DNA of 45,328 nt, taken from assembly GCA_007122875.1 (NCBI GenBank), contig SKSS01000095.1:1-45328 (forward strand). The letters are read 5' to 3'. Each line of letters starts with the position of its first letter. The stretch's first letter is position 1. Of this stretch, positions 3,403 to 31,730 are shown one piece after another. The stretch is from Salinarchaeum sp. (GTDB lineage Archaea; Halobacteriota; Halobacteria; Halobacteriales; QS-1-68-20). The translations under genes were made by a program, and so were the position numbers. Below the pieces are notes generated by a model. That model saw only the letters and a program-made list of their open reading frames with translations, made no database searches and had not been told where the DNA came from.

Positions 3403-3526
3403 GGGTGAGCAGATGCTGGCGGGTCGGTAAGGGGTTGGGAACGGGGAGGGGCTTACCGGGAGTCGGGAGGGATGACTGGGACCCAACGCTTCACGGCGAC
3501 GGAGCACGAAGCGCACTCGAAGCGAT

Positions 3527-7806: not shown

Positions 7807-8064
7807 TTAGAGCGTTCCTTCGGCTTTCAGCCCCTCGATCACGTCGTCGACGAGCGACTCGACGTCCTCGTAGGGGAACTCCTGGTGACTGCTCAGCTTG
7901 GTCGCCAGCTCCATCGCCGTGAGCTGTACGTCGCCAGCCTCGAAGCGGGTGCTCGGACCGTTCGGAAGTGCGGGGACGAGTTCCATCTGGTTGTTGACCG
8001 GATAGTCGGCCCCTTCGAACGCCTCGGTGAACTGCTCGCGAAGTTCCTCGGTTTCGTCTGCCAT
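7807..8064 (-). CDS. MTH865-like family protein
   Basis: 85 aa from ATG 8064 (MADETEELREQFTEAFEGADYPV..PALPNGPSTRFEAGD..MEL..). Resembles the small conserved archaeal MTH865 family. Confidence 0.65.
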   Translation of the reverse strand: MADETEELREQFTEAFEGADYPVNNQMELVPALPNGPSTRFEAGDVQLTAMELATKLSSHQEFPYEDVESLVDDVIEGLKAEGTL

Positions 8065-18288: not shown

Positions 18289-18891
18289 TCAGTGGACGAC
18301 CATCGTCGCGGCCGCGAACTCCCAGCCGTAGACGTGATTGAGCATGAGGTAGGTGATCACACCGAGGACGAGCGAGATGGTCCACGAGAGCGCGGCGATT
18401 CGCCCGACTCGGGGGTGTGCGGTGTTCGGTAGCTCCGAGGGGGTGTAGCTCACCCCGAGCACGACCGCGTGGAGGACGACGGGGACGGCGATGATCGAGA
18501 GGATAACGTGGACGGCGAGCATGAGCAGGTAGGCGTAGTACGGAAGCGTCGGCCCGACGAACTCCTTCGTGCCACCGCCACCGACTTTCGGCAAGTACAT
18601 GAGCAAAAACAGAAGTATCAGCCCGAACGCACCGAGCATCGCCCACTTGTGCTTTTGGACCGCTCCCTTCCGAATCCAGTACCAGCCGAGGACGATGAGC
18701 GCGGTCGCCAGCGTGTTGACGACCGCGATCGCGTGCGTGAGGAAGTCGACCTGTGCGAGCGTGAGCTCCGGATAGATCGGCAGATCCGCGACGAACGTCC
18801 CGATCACGAGGGCGTACCCGACGGCCGAGAGAATCGCCGTGACGACTGCCGGACGCTCTCTGACCCGCGCTTTGGCGCTGGCGGTTGCCAT
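18289..18891 (-). CDS. DUF420 (CtaM-like) membrane protein
   Basis: 200 aa, multiple TM helices. The H-containing helices (FLTHAIAVVNT, LMLAVHVILSIIAVP) resemble DUF420. Confidence 0.7.
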   Translation of the reverse strand: MATASAKARVRERPAVVTAILSAVGYALVIGTFVADLPIYPELTLAQVDFLTHAIAVVNTLATALIVLGWYWIRKGAVQKHKWAMLGAFGLILLFLLMYLPKVGGGGTKEFVGPTLPYYAYLLMLAVHVILSIIAVPVVLHAVVLGVSYTPSELPNTAHPRVGRIAALSWTISLVLGVITYLMLNHVYGWEFAAATMVVH

Positions 18892-18964: not shown

Positions 18965-20194
18965 TCAGTGCATCGAGATTGCCGTTGTGGATCGACTGGA
19001 GCCGACGACCGCCAGGAGGTAGAACCCGATTGCAACGACCACGATCGACCCACCCGGCGGGAGGCTCGCGAGGATCGAGAATGTCAGCCCACCGAGTACC
19101 GAGAACTGGCCGAACAGAATCGAGAGAGACAGCGTCTCGCGGAAGCTGGTGGCGATCTGCGACGCCGTCGCCACCGGAACGACCAGCATCGCGGCGACGA
19201 GGATCACGCCCAGAATCTGCATCGCGCCGACGACGACGACGGCCGTCAACACGACCAACAGCGTGTTCTGCAGGTCGACATCGAGTCTGGCGACGCGGGC
19301 GGCCCGCTCGTCGAACGTGATGAACAGCAGCTGTTTGTAGTTGACCGCGACCGCCGCGACGACCGCGACGGTGAGAAGCGCCATCATCCGCGCACCATCC
19401 GCGGTGACGATCGCGAGACTGCCGAAGAGAAAGCCCTCCACGTCGACGGAGATCGGCGCGAACTCGCGTCCCCAGCTGATGAGCAGCGTCCCGACCGCGA
19501 AGGAGCCGCTGAGCACGATCGCGATCGGCACGTCGCCGTAGGAACTCGTGTGCGTGGTCAGCCACTGGAGCCCGAGCGCGACGAGCGCGCTCACGACGAG
19601 TGCGACGAACAGCAGCGAGCCGGTCCAGCCGGTGACGGCGATGACGATCACCCCGACGGCGACGCCCGCGAACGCGGCGTGGGCGAGCGTCTCGCCGATG
19701 AGTGCCATCTGACGGTGGACGAGAAACGCCCCGACCAGTGGGGCAACGACGCCGATGAGGACGCCGGTGGCGACCGCCCGCCAGGTCGAGGGCAGCCAGA
19801 AGACGTTCGTCCCCAGGAAGTGATCGATCCACATGCCGACGACGACGAACTGATCGAACAGCAACCCCGCATACGGCGGAACGAGGGTCCACTCGGGAGC
19901 CATCCGAAGCCAGTCGACGACGATGAACGCGATCATGGCGACGGCGAGGAGTCCGGTGGCTACGATCCCCGCGACCTCGATCCGGTGACGCCACGGGCGC
20001 GTCGCGGTCGTGGTGGGCGATCGATCGTGACCTGATGGGGGATTGCTCACCGTCGGGTCCGAGTTGAGGCCGCCGTCGGCTTCCGGGTCCGAGTCACGAG
20101 TATCGAGTTCCGGTTCCGAGTCGTGCCCGTCGTCGTGGTCAAGTTCCTGACCCTGGTCTGCGCGGTCGTCGGGGGGGTCCGTGCGTTCGGTCAT
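18965..20194 (-). CDS. znuB: metal (Zn/Mn) ABC transporter permease, ABC-3 family, with ~75-aa acidic N-terminal extension
   Basis: 409 aa. ABC-3 permease core (HRQMALIGETLAHAAFAGVAVG..). ATG overlaps the upstream ATPase stop (ATGA). Confidence 0.85.
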   Translation of the reverse strand: MTERTDPPDDRADQGQELDHDDGHDSEPELDTRDSDPEADGGLNSDPTVSNPPSGHDRSPTTTATRPWRHRIEVAGIVATGLLAVAMIAFIVVDWLRMAPEWTLVPPYAGLLFDQFVVVGMWIDHFLGTNVFWLPSTWRAVATGVLIGVVAPLVGAFLVHRQMALIGETLAHAAFAGVAVGVIVIAVTGWTGSLLFVALVVSALVALGLQWLTTHTSSYGDVPIAIVLSGSFAVGTLLISWGREFAPISVDVEGFLFGSLAIVTADGARMMALLTVAVVAAVAVNYKQLLFITFDERAARVARLDVDLQNTLLVVLTAVVVVGAMQILGVILVAAMLVVPVATASQIATSFRETLSLSILFGQFSVLGGLTFSILASLPPGGSIVVVAIGFYLLAVVGSSRSTTAISMH

Positions 20195-20952
20195 GGATGA
20201 TCGTGTTCAAGGATACCGTGTGACGGCCCGTATATCTCGGCGAGTGCGTCGCTTTCGAGGAACGAGACGGTGTCACCGTGGTGGTACAGCGTCCGGTTGA
20301 CGCACGCAACCTTGTTGACGTGCTTGGTGAGAACACCGACATCGTGCTCGATGAGGATGATCGTGATGCCGCGGCGGTTGAGATCGTCGAGCAGGCCGTA
20401 GAACCGATCGCGCGATTCGGCGTCGACGCCGACGGTCGGTTCGTCGAGGGCGAGCAGGTCGGCCTCGGAGGCGAGCGCCCGTGCGATGAACGCTCGCTGG
20501 CGCTGTCCGCCCGACAGGTCGCTGATTCGTCGGTCGCCGAGCGAACGGATGCCGACGGTTTCGAGCGCCGTCGTGACGGCCTCGTGATCCTCGGCGGTGA
20601 GCCGCGACCGACCGGCGTGGGCGAACCGCCCCATCGTCACCACCTCGCGAACCGTGACGGGCATGGCCTCGCCGCGATCGGTCGATCGCTGGGCGACGTA
20701 TCCGATCCGCTCGCCGGCGTCGAAGGTCGACGCCGGTTCGCCGAACAGTTCGACCGACCCGCTGTCCGGCCGGTTGAGTCCGAGCATGAGCTGTAACAGT
20801 GTCGTCTTCCCGGAGCCGTTCGGACCGATCAGCCCGAGGAAGTCGCCGTCCTCGATCGTCAACGAGACGTCCTCGACGGCGACCTTCTCGCCATAGGCGA
20901 ACGTGACGTCCTCGACGGCGACGACGGGGTCGGAACCGTCTGTGGCCGCCAT
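20191..20952 (-). CDS. znuC: metal (Zn/Mn) ABC transporter ATP-binding protein
   Basis: 253 aa from the in-frame ATG at 20952, which overlaps the znuA stop (TGATG). Walker A GPNGSGKTT, LSGGQRQR, LLALDEPT. Confidence 0.85.
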   Translation of the reverse strand: MAATDGSDPVVAVEDVTFAYGEKVAVEDVSLTIEDGDFLGLIGPNGSGKTTLLQLMLGLNRPDSGSVELFGEPASTFDAGERIGYVAQRSTDRGEAMPVTVREVVTMGRFAHAGRSRLTAEDHEAVTTALETVGIRSLGDRRISDLSGGQRQRAFIARALASEADLLALDEPTVGVDAESRDRFYGLLDDLNRRGITIILIEHDVGVLTKHVNKVACVNRTLYHHGDTVSFLESDALAEIYGPSHGILEHDHP

Positions 20953-22355
20953 CACTCTACCCCGAGCGCCGTCCGCAGCGAGGGGAGGTTGATCTCCTCC
21001 ATCTGTTCGACCCACCCGTATCCCTCGTCGCGCCACGCCGGCGTGGTTCCTTCCGCAGGCGTAAGCGGCGCGTAGTCGGTCGCACCCGTGTTCTCGATGA
21101 GCGTCTCGACCGCCGCCGGGACGTCCTCGTCGGGGTCCGGGGCCTCGAAGGGATCGTACAGTATCGTGTCGATGCCGTGCTCCTCGACGACGGCAGCCAG
21201 CTCACCGATGTCTTCCAGCGATTCGGCGGCGTCGGGCGAGACGCCGACCGGCGTGTGGAGTTCGAAGCCGTATCGGGCTTCGAGGTATTGAAACGAGTCG
21301 TGGCCGGCGAACACGGCCACATTCCGATCGGCGTCGTCGACGAGCGCGTCGAACTGTCGGTGGACCTCCTGAACTCGCTCGGTGTACGCTTCTGCGTTCT
21401 CCTCGAACGCGTCCACGTTGTCGGGATCGAGTTCGGCGAGTTCGCCCGTGATCTCGTCGATCACGTCCTGGGCCAGCACGGGATCGACCCAGACGTGCGG
21501 GTCGTAGAACTCGTCGATCTCGTCGTCAGTCTCCTCGACGACCGACACGGTGATGTCGTCGTCCGAGGTGTCGAAGACGATGTCGTCACCGTCCCGCAGT
21601 TCGAAGACGACGAGGGTCTGTCCGTCGTCCTCACCGTGGAACTCGACGTGGTCGCCGTGGGATTCGATTTCGACGATTCCGTCGGGTGCGCCGTCGGCGA
21701 GCCTCGCGGCGATTTGGAACGCCCCGTCCTCGCCGAGCGGTGGAACGCGGCCGTCCGCGTCCTCAACGTGGACGTCGAGCGCGATATGTCCGTCGAGTGG
21801 TACGTCAGGAATCCCGCCGTGCCAGTGGTCGTCGTGCCAGTATGCGGCGACCTCGTCCGTCCGGGGATCGATGATCTCGAACTCGGCCGGGGTGAACTCC
21901 TCCGGGTCGAACTCGTGATCGTCGTCCGGTTCCGTTCGTTCCTCGTCGGCTCCCTGAAACGCGAGGAGATCCTCAGACGAGATCCCCGCCATCCCGTCGA
22001 TCACGGCCACGTCGTCGTGATCGGCTTCGAGTTCGGCGGCGAGATCCTGCGCCCACGAGAACTCCGGGGTATCGAGGTAGACGAACGCGTCCGTCGAGGC
22101 GACCCGGGAGACGATGTCGCCGTCGGGTTCCCACCCGTGACCCATCTCACCCGCTTCGACCGGGTTCTCGAACTCGAAGGCGTCGCCAGCGATCTCGGTC
22201 GTCCAGTCCCACAGCGCGAAGAACGCCGCATATCCGGTCCGATTCCCATCGTCCGAGTCGTCGCCTCCCCCCGGCTCGTCCAGACAGCCGGCGAGCGTTC
22301 CCAGCGCCGCTGCTCCCGCCCCATGCCTGAGCATCGAACGCCGTGTCAGCTTCAT
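20952..22355 (-). CDS. znuA: ZnuA/TroA-type (cluster A-I) metal-binding lipoprotein with ~115-aa inserted His-rich domain
   Basis: 467 aa. Tat signal plus lipobox (RRSMLRHGAGAAALGTLAGC). SBP ligand motifs MGHGWEP, YDPHVWVDP, AGHDSFQYL. The insertion at aa ~158-273 carries HDDHWH and HGDHVEFH. Confidence 0.85.
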   Translation of the reverse strand: MKLTRRSMLRHGAGAAALGTLAGCLDEPGGGDDSDDGNRTGYAAFFALWDWTTEIAGDAFEFENPVEAGEMGHGWEPDGDIVSRVASTDAFVYLDTPEFSWAQDLAAELEADHDDVAVIDGMAGISSEDLLAFQGADEERTEPDDDHEFDPEEFTPAEFEIIDPRTDEVAAYWHDDHWHGGIPDVPLDGHIALDVHVEDADGRVPPLGEDGAFQIAARLADGAPDGIVEIESHGDHVEFHGEDDGQTLVVFELRDGDDIVFDTSDDDITVSVVEETDDEIDEFYDPHVWVDPVLAQDVIDEITGELAELDPDNVDAFEENAEAYTERVQEVHRQFDALVDDADRNVAVFAGHDSFQYLEARYGFELHTPVGVSPDAAESLEDIGELAAVVEEHGIDTILYDPFEAPDPDEDVPAAVETLIENTGATDYAPLTPAEGTTPAWRDEGYGWVEQMEEINLPSLRTALGVE

Positions 22356-22483
22356 GGCGATCAGTCGGTCCCCATCGACTAAAAGTGTTATTATTTTCCC
22401 GATTGTGGTTAATAAGACGTGATTGTTTCCGAGGTCGTGTTAGTAAGGTGTTCGGCCCCGGTCCCCGCCCCCGAGCGCCGTGT

Positions 22484-23806
22484 TCAGCCCTCGATCACGA
22501 CTACCTCGATCGGGGCGGTCTCGTAGTCGACGTGATCGTCGTGGTACAGCTGGAAGACGACCTCGGTCTCGCCTTCCTCCTCGCCGATGATGTGGACGTG
22601 GTCGCCGTGGTAGTCGAACGAGACGATGTCGTCCGCACCCTCGGCGAGAGCGACCCGAAGCTCGTATTCGTCACCGAGCGGAATCTCGTTGCCGTCCTCG
22701 TCCTCGAAGACTGCCCCGAGCGAGACGTTGTCATCGACCGGCACCTCGGGCAGTTCGCCGTGCCAGTGGTCGTCGTGGTGATCGGCGACCTCCTCGTGGG
22801 GGTCGTGGGCCCGGTCAAGGATGTGGACGTCGGCGATCGCGTCGGCGTCGTGGTCACCCTCCTCGTCCGGGTCGGCCGAGACCTGTGCCACGATCGCCGG
22901 CGTCTCGTAGTCGACGTGGTCGTCGTGATACAGCTGGAAAACGACCTCGGTCACTCCCTCCTCCTCCCCGATGACGTGGACGTGGTCGCCGTGATAGTCG
23001 AACGAGACCACGTCCTCCGGTGCTCCCTCGGCGAGATCCACCCGGAGTTCGTACTCGCCGTTCATGACGATCTCGTCGCCCTCGTCGTCCTCGATTGTGG
23101 CTCCGAGCGAGACGGTGTCGTCGAGCGGAATCACGGGAAGATCGCCGTGCCAGTGGTCGTCGTGGACGTACGCGACCGTCTCGTGGGGATCATACGCCCG
23201 GTCGAGGATCTCGAACTCGGCCACGGAGCCGTGGTCGTCCTCGCCTTCATCGCTCACCTGAACGGTGATCGCGTCGGTCTGATAGTCAGCGTGATCGCCG
23301 TGCCACACCAGGAAGACGATCTCAGTTACGCCTTCCTCCTCGCCGATGATGTGGACGTGGTCGCCGTGGTAGTCGAACGAGACGACCGAGTCGTCGGCTC
23401 CCGCGGCGACCGCGGCTTTGAGTTCGTACTCGTCGCCGAGTTCGATCTCGTCACCGCCCTCGTCCTCGACGTACGCCCCGAGCGAGACGGTGTCCCCCGG
23501 TGGAACGGTCGGGAGGCTTCCGTGCCAGTGGTCGTCGTGCATGTACGCCACCTCTTCGTGGGGGTCGTGTGCGCGATCGAGAATCTCGAACTCGCCGATC
23601 CCAATCTCGTCGAAGTGCCCGTCTTGCACCTCGTCGGCGGGGTCGTGGTCGTCGTGGTCGTGATCGTGATCGTCGTGGTCGTCACCATCGTCGTCCGGTG
23701 TCGCCTCGTCGTCGTCGCCGAGACAGCCGGCGAGGCTGAACAGTGCGACCGATCCCGATACTGCGAGGAGCTTCCGTCGCGTCGCGAACTTCGCGTCACG
23801 TTCCAT
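22484..23806 (-). CDS. Tat lipoprotein with three tandem His-rich (HxxHxH) domains, putative extracytoplasmic zinc-binding protein
   Basis: 440 aa. Signal TRRKLLAVSGSVALFSLAGC, then a DHDDHDHDHDDHD linker, then 3 repeats each containing HDDHWH, HGDHVH and a further His patch (WHGDHADY in repeat 1, YHDDHVDY in repeats 2-3). Co-directional, 128 bp upstream of znuA. Confidence 0.8.
   Translation of the reverse strand: MERDAKFATRRKLLAVSGSVALFSLAGCLGDDDEATPDDDGDDHDDHDHDHDDHDPADEVQDGHFDEIGIGEFEILDRAHDPHEEVAYMHDDHWHGSLPTVPPGDTVSLGAYVEDEGGDEIELGDEYELKAAVAAGADDSVVSFDYHGDHVHIIGEEEGVTEIVFLVWHGDHADYQTDAITVQVSDEGEDDHGSVAEFEILDRAYDPHETVAYVHDDHWHGDLPVIPLDDTVSLGATIEDDEGDEIVMNGEYELRVDLAEGAPEDVVSFDYHGDHVHVIGEEEGVTEVVFQLYHDDHVDYETPAIVAQVSADPDEEGDHDADAIADVHILDRAHDPHEEVADHHDDHWHGELPEVPVDDNVSLGAVFEDEDGNEIPLGDEYELRVALAEGADDIVSFDYHGDHVHIIGEEEGETEVVFQLYHDDHVDYETAPIEVVVIEG
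22487..23593 (-). repeat. three tandem in-frame coding repeats (~345-387 bp each)
   Basis: Repeat 1 at 23219-23593, repeat 2 at 22832-23218, repeat 3 at 22487-22831. Each starts (E/D)(F/V)(E/H)ILDRA.DPHE.VA..HDDHWHG. Confidence 0.85.
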
Positions 23807-24026
23807 TAGTATTCACCAGTCCTGTGTTGAGAAGGCTTACTAATTAATATTCCGATCTTATTAACTACTGCTAATATCTCTGAGGTCGTTCACTACGAGA
23901 CTCACGAGCGCCTCCAGTCTGTGTTTTCGTAGTCGAAGGCCATCCGACTGGAAACCGATGATCGATGGAGGCCAACGCTCGTTTCCGGGTCGTTCCGTTA
24001 GAGTGAAACCCTGAGCGGCCGAACCG

Positions 24027-24494
24027 GTGACGTATGCGAACCACGATTGCACCCCTCGGGTGGTCGACGTGAGCGCCGACGCGGAGGGCGGGCAGCGGAC
24101 GATCCGCTGTCTCATCGCCAAGGTCGGACTCGACGGCCACGATCGGGGCGCACACGTCATCGCGCGGGCGTTTCGGGACGCCGGCTTCGAGGTGATCTAC
24201 TCCGGTCTGCATCGCGCACCCGAGGAAGTCGTTCAGGCGGCCGTCCAGGAGGACGTCGATGTCCTGGGGATCTCGATCCTCTCGGGGGCGCACAACACGC
24301 TCGTTCCGAAGGTGATCGACGGGCTAGAGGAGTACGACGCCTTCGACGACACCCTCCTCCTGATCGGTGGGGTGATTCCCGACGACGACGAGGCCGAACT
24401 CAAAGACCTCGGCGTCGCCGAGGTGTTCGGTCCCGGCACGCCCTTAGAGGAGACGATCGAGTTCGTCCGCGAGAACGTCCCCGAACGCCGATGA
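24027..24494 (+). CDS. methylmalonyl-CoA mutase, cobalamin-binding subunit/domain
   Basis: 155-aa ORF (GTG start, true start may be further downstream). B12-binding motif IAKVGLDGHDRGAHVIARAFRDAGFEVIY, GISILSGAH. Confidence 0.85.
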   Translation: MTYANHDCTPRVVDVSADAEGGQRTIRCLIAKVGLDGHDRGAHVIARAFRDAGFEVIYSGLHRAPEEVVQAAVQEDVDVLGISILSGAHNTLVPKVIDGLEEYDAFDDTLLLIGGVIPDDDEAELKDLGVAEVFGPGTPLEETIEFVRENVPERR

Positions 24495-25537
24495 TGAGCG
24501 CCGACGTACAGCCGCTGATCGACGACCTCCTGAACGGAAGTCACCGGGCGCTCGCGCGGGCGATCACGAAGATCGAAAACCGCGACCCCGGCTACCGCGA
24601 CCTCGTCGCCACGCTCTACGAGCACACCGGCACGGCGGACGTGATCGGGATCACCGGCAGCCCCGGCTCCGGAAAGTCGACGCTCGTCGACAAACTCGCG
24701 GAGCGCTACCGCGAGCGCGGCGAGACCGTCGGCGTCATCGGCGTCGACCCGTCCTCGCCCTTCACCGGCGGCGCGGTCCTCGGAGACCGCATCCGGATGG
24801 CCTCGAACGTCGGCGACATGGACGTGTTCTTCCGTTCGATGAGCGCCCGCGGCTCGCTTGGCGGTCTCTCGACGGCTACCGCTGACGCGGTCAAGGCGCT
24901 CGACGCGTTCGGTAAGGACCGGATCATCGTCGAGACCGTCGGGGCCGGCCAGAACGAAATCGACGTGGTGCGGACCGCCGACACCGTCGCCGTGCTCGTC
25001 CCGCCGGGCAGCGGCGACGACGTGCAGATGCTCAAGGCGGGTATCTTAGAGATCGCCGACGTGTTCGTCGTCAACAAGGCCGATCAGGACGGGGCGGATC
25101 GAACGGTCCAGGAACTCTCTGAGATGGTCGAACTCGGGCGTGGGGGCGTCTCAGTCGACGCCGGACACCACGGGCCGGACGCGGTGGACGACATCGGCCA
25201 CGGTCACGGAGACGACGGGGGCTGGACGCCCCGAATCGTCGAGTCGGTCGCGACCCGCGGCGAGGGGATCGAAGACGTGCTCTCGGCGTTCGCCGATCAC
25301 CGGGCGTATCTCGACGAGAGCGGCCGCGCCGCCGACCGGGCGCGCCAACGCTACGCCGAGGAGATTCGCACCCTCCTCAGACAGGACGTCGGCGAACTGC
25401 TGGAGGAGGAACTCGACGCCCACGGGGGGATCGATGATCTCGCCCGTTCGGTCGCCGAGCGTGAGACGAACCCCTACGCGGTCGTCGATCGAATCGTCGA
25501 ACCGATCGAGGCGTGCGTGAGCGATCGGCGCGACTGA
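24491..25537 (+). CDS. meaB: methylmalonyl-CoA mutase-associated GTPase MeaB/ArgK
   Basis: 348 aa from ATG 24491 (ATGA overlap with the previous stop). P-loop GITGSPGSGKST, ETVGAGQ, VVNKAD. The 5' 148 codons of track ORF 24047.. are an Arg-rich alternate frame of the mutase gene. Confidence 0.85.
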   Translation: MMSADVQPLIDDLLNGSHRALARAITKIENRDPGYRDLVATLYEHTGTADVIGITGSPGSGKSTLVDKLAERYRERGETVGVIGVDPSSPFTGGAVLGDRIRMASNVGDMDVFFRSMSARGSLGGLSTATADAVKALDAFGKDRIIVETVGAGQNEIDVVRTADTVAVLVPPGSGDDVQMLKAGILEIADVFVVNKADQDGADRTVQELSEMVELGRGGVSVDAGHHGPDAVDDIGHGHGDDGGWTPRIVESVATRGEGIEDVLSAFADHRAYLDESGRAADRARQRYAEEIRTLLRQDVGELLEEELDAHGGIDDLARSVAERETNPYAVVDRIVEPIEACVSDRRD

Positions 25538-30653: not shown

Positions 30654-31730
30654 TCAGTCAGGATCGCTGAGACGAAGGGTGAAGCCGAACGAATCCTCGT
30701 TTTCATCTCCGTCCCGTTCGCTTCGGACGGATCCGGTGAATCGGTACTGGCCGTTCGGCGCACACGCGTCGGCTTCGTTCGGCGTAGCGATTCCCACCTC
30801 TCGCGTCACGGTCTCGCCGAGGGCCATCGAGACCGACCGTTCGTCGGTGTCCTCGTCCGCTGGCTCCCCGCGCCAGCAGTCGTCGTCGTCGACGACGGCA
30901 TCGGGATCGATCAACAACAGCGCTTCGTCCGCGTTGGTGCGCGTCGCCCGAAGCTCGCCGAACGGCTCCGGGCCGTCTAATTGGACCTCCTGGAACGCCT
31001 CGCTTCGGAACCCCACGCGTACGATTGCGGGAGCGTCGTCACCGTGGGGCGACTCCAGTTCCACGGTGGCCGTTCCCGGCACCTCCTCCGACGGTTCGTC
31101 GTGAATGATCTCGACGATCCGTCGTCCACCGGGATCGATTCGGGGCTCGGCGACGACTTCGAACAGCGTAGCCCACGTCAACGGATCCTCGACCGTCTCG
31201 CTGTTCCCCTCCACGTGAAAGGCGTAGCGGCCCTCCGTCAGCTCATCGCGGAGATCGACATCGAACCACCACGTGTGCGACGATCCGGGTTCGAAGACGA
31301 CCTCGTCGCCACCGTTCCCGCGTTCGACCGTCGTCCACTCGCCGCCGTCGTCCCGCTCGATCCTCCAATCGTCGACATCGACCGTGAGTTCGGGATCGTG
31401 GTTGTCGAACAGCGTGAACTGGAGTCGCTCATCCTCATAAATGACCTCCCGGAGCGGCGAGAGGTGGGCGGGAATCGGTTCATCGAGGGCGTGATATGCG
31501 AACGTCTCGTTGCCGCGGAACGCGACCTCGTCGTCGAACCGGGAGTCGATCGCCGGTTCGCCGTCGATCTCCAGGTCGTCTCCGTACGCTCTGGGGTCGG
31601 GCGTGTCCCTGGGAGTCGTTCGATGGGGCGTCGGCTCGTCATCGTCGTCCGATCCGGTACACCCAGCGAGTCCCAGCGGAAGGGCTATCGCGGCTGTTTT
31701 TAGGGCGTCTCGTCGCGAGACGGGGCACAT
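30654..31730 (-). CDS. Tat-exported lipoprotein, function unknown
   Basis: 358 aa. SRRDALKTAAIALPLGLAGC signal with lipobox, then an acidic mature part. Confidence 0.65.
   Translation of the reverse strand: MCPVSRRDALKTAAIALPLGLAGCTGSDDDDEPTPHRTTPRDTPDPRAYGDDLEIDGEPAIDSRFDDEVAFRGNETFAYHALDEPIPAHLSPLREVIYEDERLQFTLFDNHDPELTVDVDDWRIERDDGGEWTTVERGNGGDEVVFEPGSSHTWWFDVDLRDELTEGRYAFHVEGNSETVEDPLTWATLFEVVAEPRIDPGGRRIVEIIHDEPSEEVPGTATVELESPHGDDAPAIVRVGFRSEAFQEVQLDGPEPFGELRATRTNADEALLLIDPDAVVDDDDCWRGEPADEDTDERSVSMALGETVTREVGIATPNEADACAPNGQYRFTGSVRSERDGDENEDSFGFTLRLSDPD

What the first reader, a model, noticed from the sequence alone, without database searches (positions are those of the whole stretch)
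22484..23806. Triple-repeat histidine-triad (HxxHxH) lipoprotein upstream of znuABC: a possible archaeal analogue of streptococcal Pht zinc scavengers
The 440-aa Tat lipoprotein has a DHDDHDHDHDDHD linker followed by three tandem domains (aa 72-196, 197-325, 326-440). Each domain keeps two exact HxxHxH motifs (HDDHWH and HGDHVH) plus a further His patch (WHGDHADY in repeat 1, YHDDHVDY in repeats 2-3). The gene is co-directional with, and 128 bp upstream of, a ZnuA-ZnuC-ZnuB operon. HxxHxH is the defining motif of the pneumococcal histidine triad proteins (PhtA/B/D/E). Those proteins bind Zn2+ at the cell surface and pass it to the ZnuA-type binding protein AdcAII, whose gene is adjacent to phtD. 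Outside the motif I see no resemblance to Pht, so this looks like an independently evolved surface zinc-capture domain. I do not recognise it as a described family.
Basis: partly seen in the sequence, partly recalled or inferred. Interest (0 to 1): 0.7.

Follow-up and report, generated by a model that had tools for sequence, protein, structure and literature searches.

The report
Histidine-triad surface domain beside zinc importer
A membrane-anchored surface protein made of three copies of an undescribed histidine-studded beta-sandwich domain sits next to a zinc importer that carries a fourth copy, and it most likely captures scarce zinc (in some bacteria nickel or cobalt) for uptake in soda-lake microbes.

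Summary
A 440-aa Tat lipoprotein is encoded on the minus strand at 22484-23806. It has a (D/H) linker and three ~125-aa repeats, each with HDDHWH, HGDHVH and a third His patch. It lies 128 bp upstream of znuA-znuC-znuB.

New findings:
- A fourth copy of the domain is inserted in ZnuA, exactly where other zinc-binding proteins have their His-rich loop.
- The domain matches no Pfam or NCBIfam model. It is rare: 556 cluster representatives among 1.84 billion proteins.
- It models confidently as an Ig-like beta-sandwich and has no detectable homology to Pht or ZepA.
- It is not specific to archaea. It occurs in many phyla, overwhelmingly in soda-lake and haloalkaliphilic organisms.
- Of 64 assessable genomic loci, 44 link it to znuA/znuB and 9 place it inside a cbiQ-cbiO-X-cbiM-nikL Ni/Co importer cluster.
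- ZnuA-inserted copies keep only triad 1. Stand-alone copies keep both triads.
- An operator-like dyad precedes both this gene and znuA, and elsewhere a COG0523 GTPase gene, which suggests a zinc-starvation regulon.

Best reading: a surface metal scavenger that feeds ZnuA, analogous to Pht but not homologous to it. Metal binding has not been tested.

The parts
23837..23864 (-). Operator-like dyad TTAATAAGATCGGAATATTAATTAGTAA (TTAnTAA-N14-WTAnTAA), ending 30 nt upstream of the start codon of the three-repeat gene
   Evidence: the pattern occurs at only two places in the 45-kb window, with 0 expected in 100 shuffles; the same motif lies at the same position upstream of orthologues in about 20 haloarchaeal loci.
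22484..23806 (-). Gene for the 440-aa lipoprotein with three His-triad Ig-like domains (stop codon at 22484-22486)
   Evidence: GC3 is 0.85. An identical protein, P0001, is in public data.
23723..23806 (-). Tat-type signal peptide plus lipobox (aa 1-28, TRRKLL...LAGC)
   Evidence: Read directly from the sequence. 193 of 245 family proteins have a lipobox-like Cys in the first 50 aa. All haloarchaeal orthologues show RR plus AGC.
23606..23722 (-). Acidic/His-rich low-complexity linker (aa 29-67, includes DHDDHDHDHDDHD)
   Evidence: Linkers of (D/H)n with variable length are present in all haloarchaeal orthologues.
23231..23605 (-). Domain repeat 1 (aa 68-192): HDDHWH at 90, HGDHVH at 147, WHGDHADY
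   Evidence: One search gives HMM E=1e-50.
22844..23230 (-). Domain repeat 2 (aa 193-321): HDDHWH at 215, HGDHVH at 272, YHDDHVDY. This repeat was the one modelled.
   Evidence: E=1.5e-51. AF2 gives pLDDT 94.2, pTM 0.86 and 11 beta-strands.
22487..22843 (-). Domain repeat 3 (aa 322-440): HDDHWH at 344, HGDHVH at 400, YHDDHVDY
   Evidence: E=1.5e-50.
22388..22415 (-). Second copy of the operator-like dyad, TTATTAACCACAATCGGGAAAATAATAA, followed by a TATA-like CTTTTA, upstream of znuA
20952..22355 (-). znuA: Tat lipoprotein, cluster A-I metal-binding protein with a Zn-type ligand set (H73, H287, H352, plus E404 or D401)
   Evidence: Pfam ZnuA 3.5e-40. The best solved relatives are the zinc proteins YcdH, AdcA, Lbp/Lmb and AdcAII.
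21522..21911 (-). Fourth copy of the domain, inserted in ZnuA (aa ~149-278) at the position of the His-rich loop. It keeps HDDHWH (aa 174). Triad 2 has degenerated to HGDHVEFH and the third patch is lost.
   Evidence: E=3.9e-37. Alignments to 2O1E and 7JJ8 jump from query residue 148 to 279/283.
20191..21036 (-). znuC ABC ATPase. The true start is probably the ATG at 20952, which overlaps the znuA stop (TGATG).
   Evidence: (AztA 1.4e-56).
18965..20194 (-). znuB ABC-3 permease, with a ~135-aa acidic N-terminal extension. Its start overlaps the znuC stop (ATGA).
   Evidence: (ABC-3 4.9e-53, matching aa 138-397).

Best explanation
The gene encodes a lipid-anchored, extracytoplasmic metal scavenger. 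It is exported by the Tat pathway and tethered to the outer face of the membrane through Cys28 and a flexible Asp/His linker.

It displays three rigid Ig-like beta-sandwich modules. Each module presents two conserved HxxHxH hairpins. In this protein each also presents a third HxxHxD hairpin. That gives up to nine His-based sites for borderline divalent metals.

The protein would capture Zn2+ from a brine where free zinc is scarce and concentrate it at the membrane. It would then hand the metal to ZnuA. ZnuA's own inserted copy of the domain, in which only triad 1 is conserved, replaces the usual His-rich loop. This copy probably acts as the receiving or fishing site next to the high-affinity three-His cleft. 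ZnuBC then imports the metal.

Both genes carry the same operator-like dyad and are probably induced together under zinc starvation.

What is shown: the gene, the repeats, motif conservation, fold confidence, the insertion point, synteny and fusion, and motif co-occurrence.

What is inferred: metal binding, zinc preference, transfer to ZnuA, regulation by zinc, and the link to alkaline habitat.
For: 1. Domain fusion. The same domain is inserted into, or appended to, ZnuA-family proteins. 27 of the 120 listed homologues carry PF01297. All 120 best ZnuA homologues are 450-484 aa (one is 740 aa) and cover the insert. The insertion is exactly at the His-rich-loop position of YcdH and AdcA.
2. Synteny. 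Of 74 genome loci, 44 have a co-directional znuA/znuB, usually within 1 kb. Nine lie inside cbiQ-cbiO-X-cbiM-nikL clusters. Ten are cut by contig ends and only 11 are unlinked. Only the X-znuA-znuC-znuB cassette is conserved; the flanking genes are not.
3. Selection on the His residues. Triad 1 is nearly invariant in 122 ZnuA-inserted copies (H23 121/122, H26 122/122, H28 117/122), while triad 2 decays there (H85 5/122). Both triads are kept in 449 other copies, mainly from stand-alone proteins (H80 374, H83 389, H85 318).
4. Geometry. AF2 gives pLDDT 94.2. In each triad the first His ends one strand and the second and third lie on the next strand. The Zn site of PhtD is arranged the same way (H83, H86, H88 plus E63; PMC3842936).
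5. Zinc assignment. ZnuA has His at all three canonical ligand positions, and its best solved relatives are zinc-specific. NCBIfam gives AztC/AdcA, AztA and AztB as the best hits, although below the curated cut-offs.
6. Regulon. The dyad TTAnTAA-N14-WTAnTAA occurs only twice in the window, upstream of this gene and of znuA, with 0 expected. In relatives it also precedes znuC and a cobW+CobW_C (COG0523) GTPase gene. A subset of COG0523 proteins is linked to zinc homeostasis (PMC2770081). A second COG0523 gene neighbours the domain gene in a Trueperaceae locus.
7. Location. A lipobox-like Cys is present in 193 of 245 family proteins.
Against: There are no experimental data on metal binding, specificity or transfer.

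The association with CbiM/CbiQ/NikL in Firmicutes shows the domain is not tied to zinc alone.

Eleven of 64 assessable loci show no metal-transport neighbour.

The homologous ycdH-zurA-zurM operon of Halobacterium NRC-1 is described in the literature as a SirR-regulated Mn/Fe uptake system (PMC3600143).

The idea that alkaline pH causes zinc limitation is my inference. One study of Synechocystis at pH 9.2 found ZnuA decreased and a Zn-efflux pump increased (PMC12382314).

Some distant family members have lost triad 1, so the fold can serve other roles.
Confidence: 0.6

Rival explanations
1. The domain is a general-purpose extracytoplasmic capture module for borderline divalent metals (Zn, Ni, Co, perhaps Cu). 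It has no intrinsic zinc specificity. The importer encoded next to it decides which metal is taken up: ZnuABC in archaea, Mollicutes and others, and the CbiMQO/NikL ECF transporter in Syntrophomonadaceae and Tindallia. In the latter it would take the place of NikK.
For: Nine loci place an intact two-triad protein between cbiO and cbiM, followed by a NikL-like gene. All-His sites follow the Irving-Williams order and do not discriminate sharply between Zn, Ni and Co (established coordination chemistry). The triads in the Tindallia protein P0080 are intact.
Against: In most loci, and in every fusion, the partner is a ZnuA-type protein with a Zn-type three-His ligand set. The haloarchaeal operator also precedes a COG0523 gene. 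Lineage-specific tuning of specificity could explain both contexts.
Confidence: 0.2
2. The protein is a surface metal buffer, store or detoxifier. It would sequester excess or toxic metal at the cell surface instead of feeding an importer. A related idea is that the ZnuA insert acts as a sensor that throttles uptake, as has been proposed for the His-rich loop of some ZnuA proteins.
For: There are many low-complexity D/H linkers and up to nine sites per protein. Some metagenome-assembled genomes (MAGs) come from metal-contaminated hypersaline soil, the Ods MAGs. The regulatory-loop idea rests on general knowledge of ZnuA.
Against: The genes sit with importers, not with efflux pumps or resistance genes. 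They share an operator with znuA and with a COG0523 gene, which fits a starvation regulon better than a resistance regulon. Stand-alone multi-domain proteins are hard to explain as regulators of ZnuA.
Confidence: 0.1
3. The domain is mainly a structural or adhesive cell-envelope Ig-like domain of haloalkaliphiles. Its histidines and acidic residues would stabilise the fold or the envelope, for example through structural metal or pH effects. On this view the link to transporters is incidental.
For: The nearest structural matches are Rib, S-layer (SbsC, Sap, EA1) and filamin-type Ig domains, though only weakly (TM no higher than 0.53). Some large surface proteins carry a copy that lacks triad 1, next to CARDB, PGF-CTERM and similar domains.
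Against: The domain is precisely inserted at the metal-fishing loop of ZnuA in hundreds of proteins. Triad 1 is near-invariant there. 53 of 64 assessable loci lie with metal importers.
Confidence: 0.07

Closest known systems
Streptococcal polyhistidine triad proteins (PhtA/B/D/E; Pfam PF04270, TIGR01363)
   Same: Both are surface lipoproteins with repeated HxxHxH motifs. The local sequence HGDHVHVI resembles Pht's HGDHYHYI. In both, the first His ends one beta-strand and the second and third lie on the next. Both genes lie next to a ZnuA/AdcAII-type zinc-binding protein gene. PhtD has been shown to pass Zn2+ to AdcAII (PMC3842936).
   Different: No homology is detectable. There is no PF04270 hit. 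The published Pht pattern matches 0 of 120 family members. hhalign aligns only 13 columns at 17% probability. Foldseek returns no Pht structure. Here two or three triads are built into one compact ~125-aa Ig-like sandwich, whereas Pht has short three-stranded units joined by long disordered linkers. The domain is also inserted into the binding protein itself, and it is found in archaea and many bacterial phyla.
His-rich loop of ZnuA/AdcA-type cluster A-I zinc-binding proteins (e.g. B. subtilis YcdH 2O1E, AdcA 7JJ8)
   Same: It occupies the same position in the ZnuA fold, between the first His ligand and the DPHxW ligand. It is rich in His and acidic residues. The presumed role is the same: low-affinity capture close to the high-affinity site.
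   Different: A folded 125-aa beta-sandwich with a fixed HxDHWHG triad replaces a short disordered loop. The same module also exists as a separate multi-copy protein.
ZepA (Anabaena All3515), a Zur-regulated zinc-acquisition exoprotein (PMC10957091)
   Same: It is extracellular. It has an Ig-like beta-sandwich domain. Its predicted zinc site has the motif H-x(2-9)-H-[FY]-H (NHFHG, against DHWHG here). It belongs to a zinc-starvation regulon and has a patchy phyletic distribution.
   Different: hhalign probability is 1.5%. ZepA has one site, a second domain with a novel fold and a PEP-CTERM anchor. It is reported as absent from archaea and is linked to outer-membrane uptake, not to ZnuA fusion.
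ZinT/YodA, AztD, ZrgA and PA4063: accessory periplasmic zinc chaperones of ZnuABC/AztABC
   Same: They have the same functional logic: an extra metal-binding protein encoded with, or co-regulated with, a ZnuA-type importer.
   Different: The folds are unrelated. AztD is a beta-propeller and ZinT is lipocalin-like (both from my own knowledge). [quoted passage not shown] The Pfam and NCBIfam scans of the 440-aa protein listed no zinc-chaperone family.
NikK/NikL accessory components of Nik(MN)QO / CbiMNQO ECF transporters
   Same: In 9 bacterial loci the domain protein lies between cbiO and cbiM, next to a NikL-like gene. That is where an extracytoplasmic accessory component would be expected.
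   Different: No sequence relationship was tested or found. The equivalence rests on gene position only.

Membership tests
Streptococcal histidine triad (Pht) family | Presence of repeated HxxHxH motifs | tested here: met
   There are seven HxxHxH motifs in the protein, six of them in the three domains. They are conserved across the family.
Streptococcal histidine triad (Pht) family | Match to the family profile (Pfam PF04270 Strep_his_triad) | tested here: not met
   hmmscan against Pfam-A at E<=1 lists no PF04270. Other family members give the same result.
Streptococcal histidine triad (Pht) family | Bersch et al. pattern [DEH]-G-[YILVTFMW]-x(12,16)-[YILVTFMW]-[YILVTFMWA]-[YILVTFMW]-x-H-x(2)-H-x-H-[YILVTFMW](2) | tested here: not met
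   There are no matches in the window protein or in any of 120 homologues. Even the core part of the pattern fails in the window protein (pattern taken from PMC3842936).
Streptococcal histidine triad (Pht) family | Sequence or fold similarity beyond the motif to PhtA/PhtD (2CS7, 3ZFJ, 6CSL, 9P1V) | tested here: not met
   hhalign of the domain profile against five Pht triad units aligns 13 columns at 17% probability. A PDB profile search at E<=10 gives no Pht. Pht is absent from the 50 listed Foldseek PDB matches.
Streptococcal histidine triad (Pht) family | Triad placed on a beta-hairpin (His1 on one strand, His2 and His3 on the next), binding one Zn2+ | tested here: inconclusive
   The secondary structure of the AF2 model places H23 at the end of strand 17-23 and H26/H28 on strand 26-29. 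H80 follows strand 75-79, and H83/H85 lie on strand 83-88. This matches the PhtD description.
Streptococcal histidine triad (Pht) family | Gene adjacent to an AdcAII/ZnuA-type binding-protein gene; Zn2+ transfer to it | tested here: met
   Adjacency is met (128 bp in the window; 44 of 64 assessable loci). The transfer itself cannot be tested with these tools.
ZnuA / cluster A-I zinc-binding protein (for the neighbouring gene and its insert) | PF01297 fold with His at the three metal-ligand positions, and an insert at the His-rich-loop site | tested here: met
   PF01297 scores 3.5e-40. H73, H287 and H352 align with the conserved His of YcdH. Residues 149-278 are absent from YcdH and AdcA and lie at their His-rich loop.
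ZepA zinc exoprotein family | Sequence homology to All3515 (Ig-like domain A plus domain B, H-x(2-9)-H-[FY]-H) | tested here: not met
   hhalign of the domain profile against the All3515 sequence with its signal peptide and PEP-CTERM removed gives 1.5% probability (sequence from the supplement). Only the motif style and the general fold class are shared.
Bacterial Ig-like domains (Rib, Big, S-layer SbsC/Sap type) | Fold-level match with convincing TM-score, or a profile match | tested here: inconclusive
   The best Foldseek hit is 9avk, a Rib domain, with E=8.8e-4 and TMq 0.42. The highest TMq is 0.53. Pfam gives only sub-threshold hits to T2SS-T3SS_pil_N, Big_14 and similar models. It is a beta-sandwich of the general Ig-like class and not a member of a named family.
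Zur-type zinc-starvation regulon (functional class) | A shared operator upstream of znuA, accessory binding-protein genes and COG0523 genes; response to zinc | tested here: inconclusive
   A shared dyad was found upstream of this gene, znuA, znuC and a COG0523 gene. The regulator and the zinc response are unknown.

The most novel reading that the evidence does not exclude
This is a habitat-specific protein module for metal capture. It is an undescribed Ig-like domain with two or three built-in His-triad hairpins, and it has spread horizontally among archaea and at least seven bacterial phyla living in soda lakes. It plugs into two mechanistically different importers: it is fused into ZnuA of ABC importers, and it is encoded inside CbiMQO/NikL ECF clusters. 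In haloalkaliphilic archaea it belongs to a previously unrecognised zinc-starvation regulon. That regulon is defined by a TTAnTAA-N14-TTAnTAA operator and an unknown regulator. Its other members include a COG0523 GTPase and a second uncharacterised 'DHDHAC' lipoprotein domain.
Probability: 0.4. Interest if true: 0.75.

Novelty: new variant of a known kind. Interest (0 to 1): 0.62.

Why it matters
Accessory surface proteins that capture zinc for ZnuA-type importers are known almost only from pathogens (Pht, ZinT, AdcA's ZinT domain) and a few model bacteria (AztD, ZepA). If the function holds, this family would be the first such system described for archaea.

It would also be a clear case of convergent use of the HxxHxH hairpin in an unrelated fold. 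And it shows a natural way to replace ZnuA's disordered His-rich loop with a rigid domain.

The near-exclusive occurrence in soda-lake organisms across many phyla points to trace-metal acquisition as a shared and transferable adaptation to high-pH carbonate brines.

The conserved operator gives a direct handle on zinc-responsive regulation in haloalkaliphilic archaea. I found no description of such regulation in the literature I searched.

The compact, salt- and alkali-adapted multi-site His domain could also be useful for metal capture or as an affinity module.

Tried and rejected
- Pfam, NCBIfam and PDB sequence searches of the protein and the domain profile gave only sub-threshold noise. 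The precomputed PF23893 and PF06572 labels on two homologues are marginal local matches in which no single stretch passes.
- Homology to Pht was rejected.
- Homology to ZepA was rejected.
- I tested whether the domain arose by duplication of a triad-bearing half. hhalign of the N-half against the C-half gives 28 columns at 3.9% probability, which is no support.
- I tried to infer 3D proximity of the triads by mean-field DCA on 515-543 domain sequences. The top couplings were dominated by indel artefacts and noise, so I did not use them.
- Model coordinates are not exposed by the tools, so His-His distances could not be measured.
- The first attempt at search for related loci with the 81-sequence alignment failed because no stretch was conserved enough. 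A 10-sequence alignment worked.
- I looked for a conserved regulator gene or other conserved neighbours around the cassette. None was found beyond X-znuA-znuC-znuB.
- Literature searches for a prior description of the domain or of ZnuA inserts in haloarchaea or soda lakes found nothing relevant.
- I considered a carbonic-anhydrase-like or other enzymatic three-His site. I rejected it because nothing supports it and because the domain is tied to importers.
Full report
**Observation**

The ORF at 22484-23806 is real but lies on the minus strand (440 aa). The window matches an ENA metagenome assembly contig that carries the identical protein and the same neighbouring genes (ERZ27301261, k141_2298704, 46,989 bp).

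- The N-terminus MERDAKFATRRKLLAVSGSVALFSLAGC has a twin-arginine motif and a lipobox.
- Residues 43-55 are DHDDHDHDHDDHD.
- HDDHWH occurs at 90, 215 and 344, and HGDHVH at 147, 272 and 400.
- The third patch is WHGDHADY in repeat 1 and YHDDHVDY in repeats 2 and 3.
- The three repeats are 66-67% identical. HMM envelopes place them at 68-192, 193-321 and 322-440.
- The gene ends 128 bp before znuA (20952-22355). znuC and znuB follow with overlapping stop/start codons.

A six-frame scan with the domain profile finds exactly four copies in the window.

**What the domain is**

Neither Pfam nor NCBIfam has a model for it, and a PDB sequence-profile search finds nothing.

A word-indexed search found 156 homologues. 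An exhaustive profile search of 1.84 billion cluster representatives found only 556 at E<=0.001, so the family is rare.

Proteins carry one to four copies: 98, 123, 24 and 7 proteins respectively. 193 of 245 have a lipobox-like Cys near the N-terminus. The copies are stand-alone, or inserted into or appended to ZnuA-family proteins.

Conservation in 81 non-redundant instances:
- The family signature is H-x-D-H-W-H-G. W is 81/81, and the three His are 66, 73 and 59 of 81. The third His is replaced by Asp in 18.
- The second signature is H-G-D-H-V-H, with the three His at 76, 78 and 66 of 81.
- The third patch is present in only about half (H102 49/81, H105 32/81).

AlphaFold2 with this alignment gives a confident all-beta model (pLDDT 94.2, pTM 0.86, 11 strands). 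Foldseek against the PDB returns only weak Ig-like matches: Rib, S-layer SbsC/Sap and filamin domains, with best E 8.8e-4 and TM no higher than 0.53. It returns no Pht structure.

In the model all three His patches have the same local layout: strand, His, two-to-three-residue turn, then His-x-His (or His-x-Asp) on the next strand.

**Relation to Pht and ZepA**

The Zn site of PhtD uses H83 on strand 2, H86 and H88 on strand 3, and E63. PhtD transfers Zn2+ to AdcAII (PMC3842936). The predicted hairpin layout here is the same, and HGDHVHVI resembles Pht's HGDHYHYI.

Every test of homology fails, however:
- There is no PF04270 hit.
- The published Pht pattern matches 0 of 120 family members.
- Profile-profile alignment covers 13 columns at 17% probability.

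ZepA of Anabaena is an extracellular zinc-binding protein with an Ig-like domain and an H-x(2-9)-H-[FY]-H site (PMC10957091). It is also unrelated by sequence (1.5% probability).

So the resemblance is one of mechanism and context, not of ancestry.

**The ZnuA insert**

Alignments to B. subtilis YcdH (2O1E) and AdcA (7JJ8) cover ZnuA residues up to 148 and resume at 279/283. The missing stretch corresponds to their His/Glu-rich loop, just before the DPHVW ligand motif. ZnuA keeps His at the three canonical ligand positions (H73, H287, H352). Its nearest solved relatives are zinc-specific proteins.

The 120 best homologues of this ZnuA mostly cover the full query, including the insert (lowest coverage 67%). 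All but one are 450-484 aa long. Every named source is a haloalkaliphilic archaeon: Natronobiforma, Natrarchaeobius, Natronococcus, Natrialba, Natronomonas, Halalkaliarchaeum, Halorubrum vacuolatum and others.

The two kinds of copy are conserved differently:
- In 122 ZnuA-inserted copies, triad 1 is almost invariant (121, 122 and 117 of 122). Triad 2 has decayed (56, 44 and 5 of 122), and the third patch is absent.
- In 449 other copies, mainly from stand-alone proteins, both triads are kept.

This pattern argues that the histidines are under functional selection. It also suggests that triad 1 is the site that works together with ZnuA.

**Genomic context elsewhere**

A scan of one genome per species returned 74 loci.
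- In 44 loci a znuA or znuB homologue lies co-directionally within 6 kb, nearly always within 1.3 kb or fused.
- Nine loci (Syntrophomonadaceae, Tindallia) have the gene between cbiO and cbiM of an ECF Ni/Co transporter cluster that ends with a NikL-like gene.
- Ten loci are truncated by contig ends.
- Eleven loci have no metal-transport neighbour. One of these has a COG0523 GTPase next door.

Only the four-gene cassette is conserved. The flanking genes are not.

**Habitat**

46 of the 74 loci are MAGs whose names carry the codes of the Kulunda Steppe soda-lake metagenomes (CSSed, CSBr, B1Sed, T1Sed, T3Sed, Tc-Br). Cock Soda Lake has pH 10 and 0.62 M carbonate alkalinity (PMC6704655). I assigned the codes other than the Cock Soda Lake ones partly from my own knowledge.

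Three more loci carry Cariboo soda-lake codes, also assigned from my own knowledge. The cultured hosts are haloalkaliphiles. The phyla include Halobacteria, Thermoplasmata, Methanonatronarchaeia, Firmicutes, Izimaplasma/Mollicutes, Deinococcota, Myxococcota, Spirochaetes, Fibrobacteria and Actinobacteria.

No locus came from the well-known neutrophilic haloarchaeal genera. The scan used exact peptide patterns, so absence is not proven.

My view that the habitat link reflects poor availability of free Zn/Ni/Co at high pH and high carbonate is an inference. One cyanobacterial study at pH 9.2 points the other way.

**Regulation**

Upstream of the gene (23837-23864) and upstream of znuA (22388-22415) lies the same dyad, TTAnTAA-N14-WTAnTAA. 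These are the only two places in the window where it occurs, against 0 expected.

The motif is conserved at the same positions in about 20 haloarchaeal loci. There it also precedes:
- znuC;
- a lipoprotein with a second unknown 'DHDHAC' domain;
- a P-loop protein with a Cys/His tail;
- in Halorubrum vacuolatum, a cobW+CobW_C (COG0523) GTPase gene.

A subset of COG0523 proteins is linked to zinc homeostasis (PMC2770081). This suggests a zinc-starvation regulon with an unknown regulator.

One caveat applies. The related ycdH-zurA-zurM operon of Halobacterium NRC-1 has been described as a SirR-controlled Mn/Fe uptake system (PMC3600143).

**Mechanism and verdict**

The most likely reading (about 0.6) is a lipid-anchored, multi-site His-triad scavenger. 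It would capture Zn2+ at the cell surface and pass it to ZnuA, whose own inserted copy of the domain replaces the His-rich loop.

The main rival (about 0.2) is a broader Zn/Ni/Co capture module whose metal is set by the partner importer. Buffering or sensing roles, or a purely structural role, are less likely.

It is too narrow in calling the domain archaeal and zinc-only, and it missed the ZnuA copy.

The family is a new variant of a known kind of system. It is undescribed, habitat-restricted and experimentally tractable. Metal binding, specificity, transfer and regulation all remain to be shown.

Noticed in passing
window 22388-22415 and 23837-23864; also L005, L006, L007, L009-L015, L018, L019, L022, L025, L026, L029, L043, L051, L060, L076: An operator-like dyad, TTAnTAA-N14-WTAnTAA, lies 30-60 nt upstream of start codons. 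In the window it occurs only before the three-repeat gene and znuA (0 expected by chance). In relatives it also precedes znuC (L012 2947-2974, L019 2309-2336). It is a candidate zinc-responsive operator of haloalkaliphilic archaea, and the regulator is unknown.
   Followed up: partly
L009 7972-7999 (minus strand), gene start at 7937: In Halorubrum vacuolatum the same dyad lies 35 nt upstream of a 422-aa cobW+CobW_C (COG0523, GCICC motif) GTPase gene, about 2 kb from the domain gene. A second COG0523 gene is the downstream neighbour of the domain gene in a Trueperaceae MAG (L059 8871-10985).
   Followed up: yes
L022 3539-4081 (dyad at 3483-3510); L023 12330-14027; C-terminus of P0002 (aa ~590-710); P0135 and P0232: A second uncharacterised extracytoplasmic domain of about 120 aa has the signature D-H-D-H-A-C-x-H-x-E-x-D-x-R-T-P-L...H-V-x-W-x-V-x-Y. 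It is fused to, or encoded next to, the His-triad domain, and in L022 it is preceded by the same dyad. It has no Pfam match. It may be another metal-binding module of the same regulon.
   Followed up: partly
L011 15984-16011, gene from 16049: A 248-aa P-loop protein (GESDVGKTT) ending in YYRCNCRCHDGHVIARLHEEG is preceded by the same dyad. It has no Pfam match. It may be a metallochaperone-like NTPase.
   Followed up: partly
window 18965-20194 (minus), first ~135 codons: ZnuB has a ~135-aa N-terminal extension ahead of the ABC-3 domain, which matches aa 138-397. The extension is very acidic and contains some His (…DHDDGHDSEPE…), followed by an extra hydrophobic segment. The start codon overlaps the znuC stop (ATGA), so the extension is probably real.
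   Followed up: no
window 20952-21036: The mechanical znuC ORF starts at a GTG 85 nt inside znuA. The likely true start is the ATG at 20952, which overlaps the znuA stop (TGATG). This implies translational coupling of znuA, znuC and znuB.
   Followed up: yes
L001 4387-7995, and L028, L033, L037, L038, L040, L044, L045, L047, L052: In soda-lake Syntrophomonadaceae and Tindallia the gene order is cbiQ-cbiO-[two-domain His-triad lipoprotein]-cbiM, followed in six of the ten loci by a detectable nikL-like gene. No cbiN gene appears among the called genes of L001. The His-triad protein may act as the extracytoplasmic component of this ECF transporter.
   Followed up: partly
window 30654-31730 (minus): This is another predicted Tat lipoprotein (MCPVSRRDALK…LAGCTGSDDDDEPTPH) with a poly-Asp linker. 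It has only a weak Ig-like (Big_14) hint and does not match the His-triad domain profile.
   Followed up: no
window 24027-25537 (plus): A methylmalonyl-CoA mutase B12-binding subunit gene and a MeaB G3E GTPase gene are transcribed divergently from the three-repeat gene. This neighbourhood is not conserved in related loci, so it is probably unrelated.
   Followed up: yes
window 18289-18891 (minus): A DUF420 membrane protein gene lies directly downstream of znuB. It is not conserved next to the cassette in other loci.
   Followed up: yes
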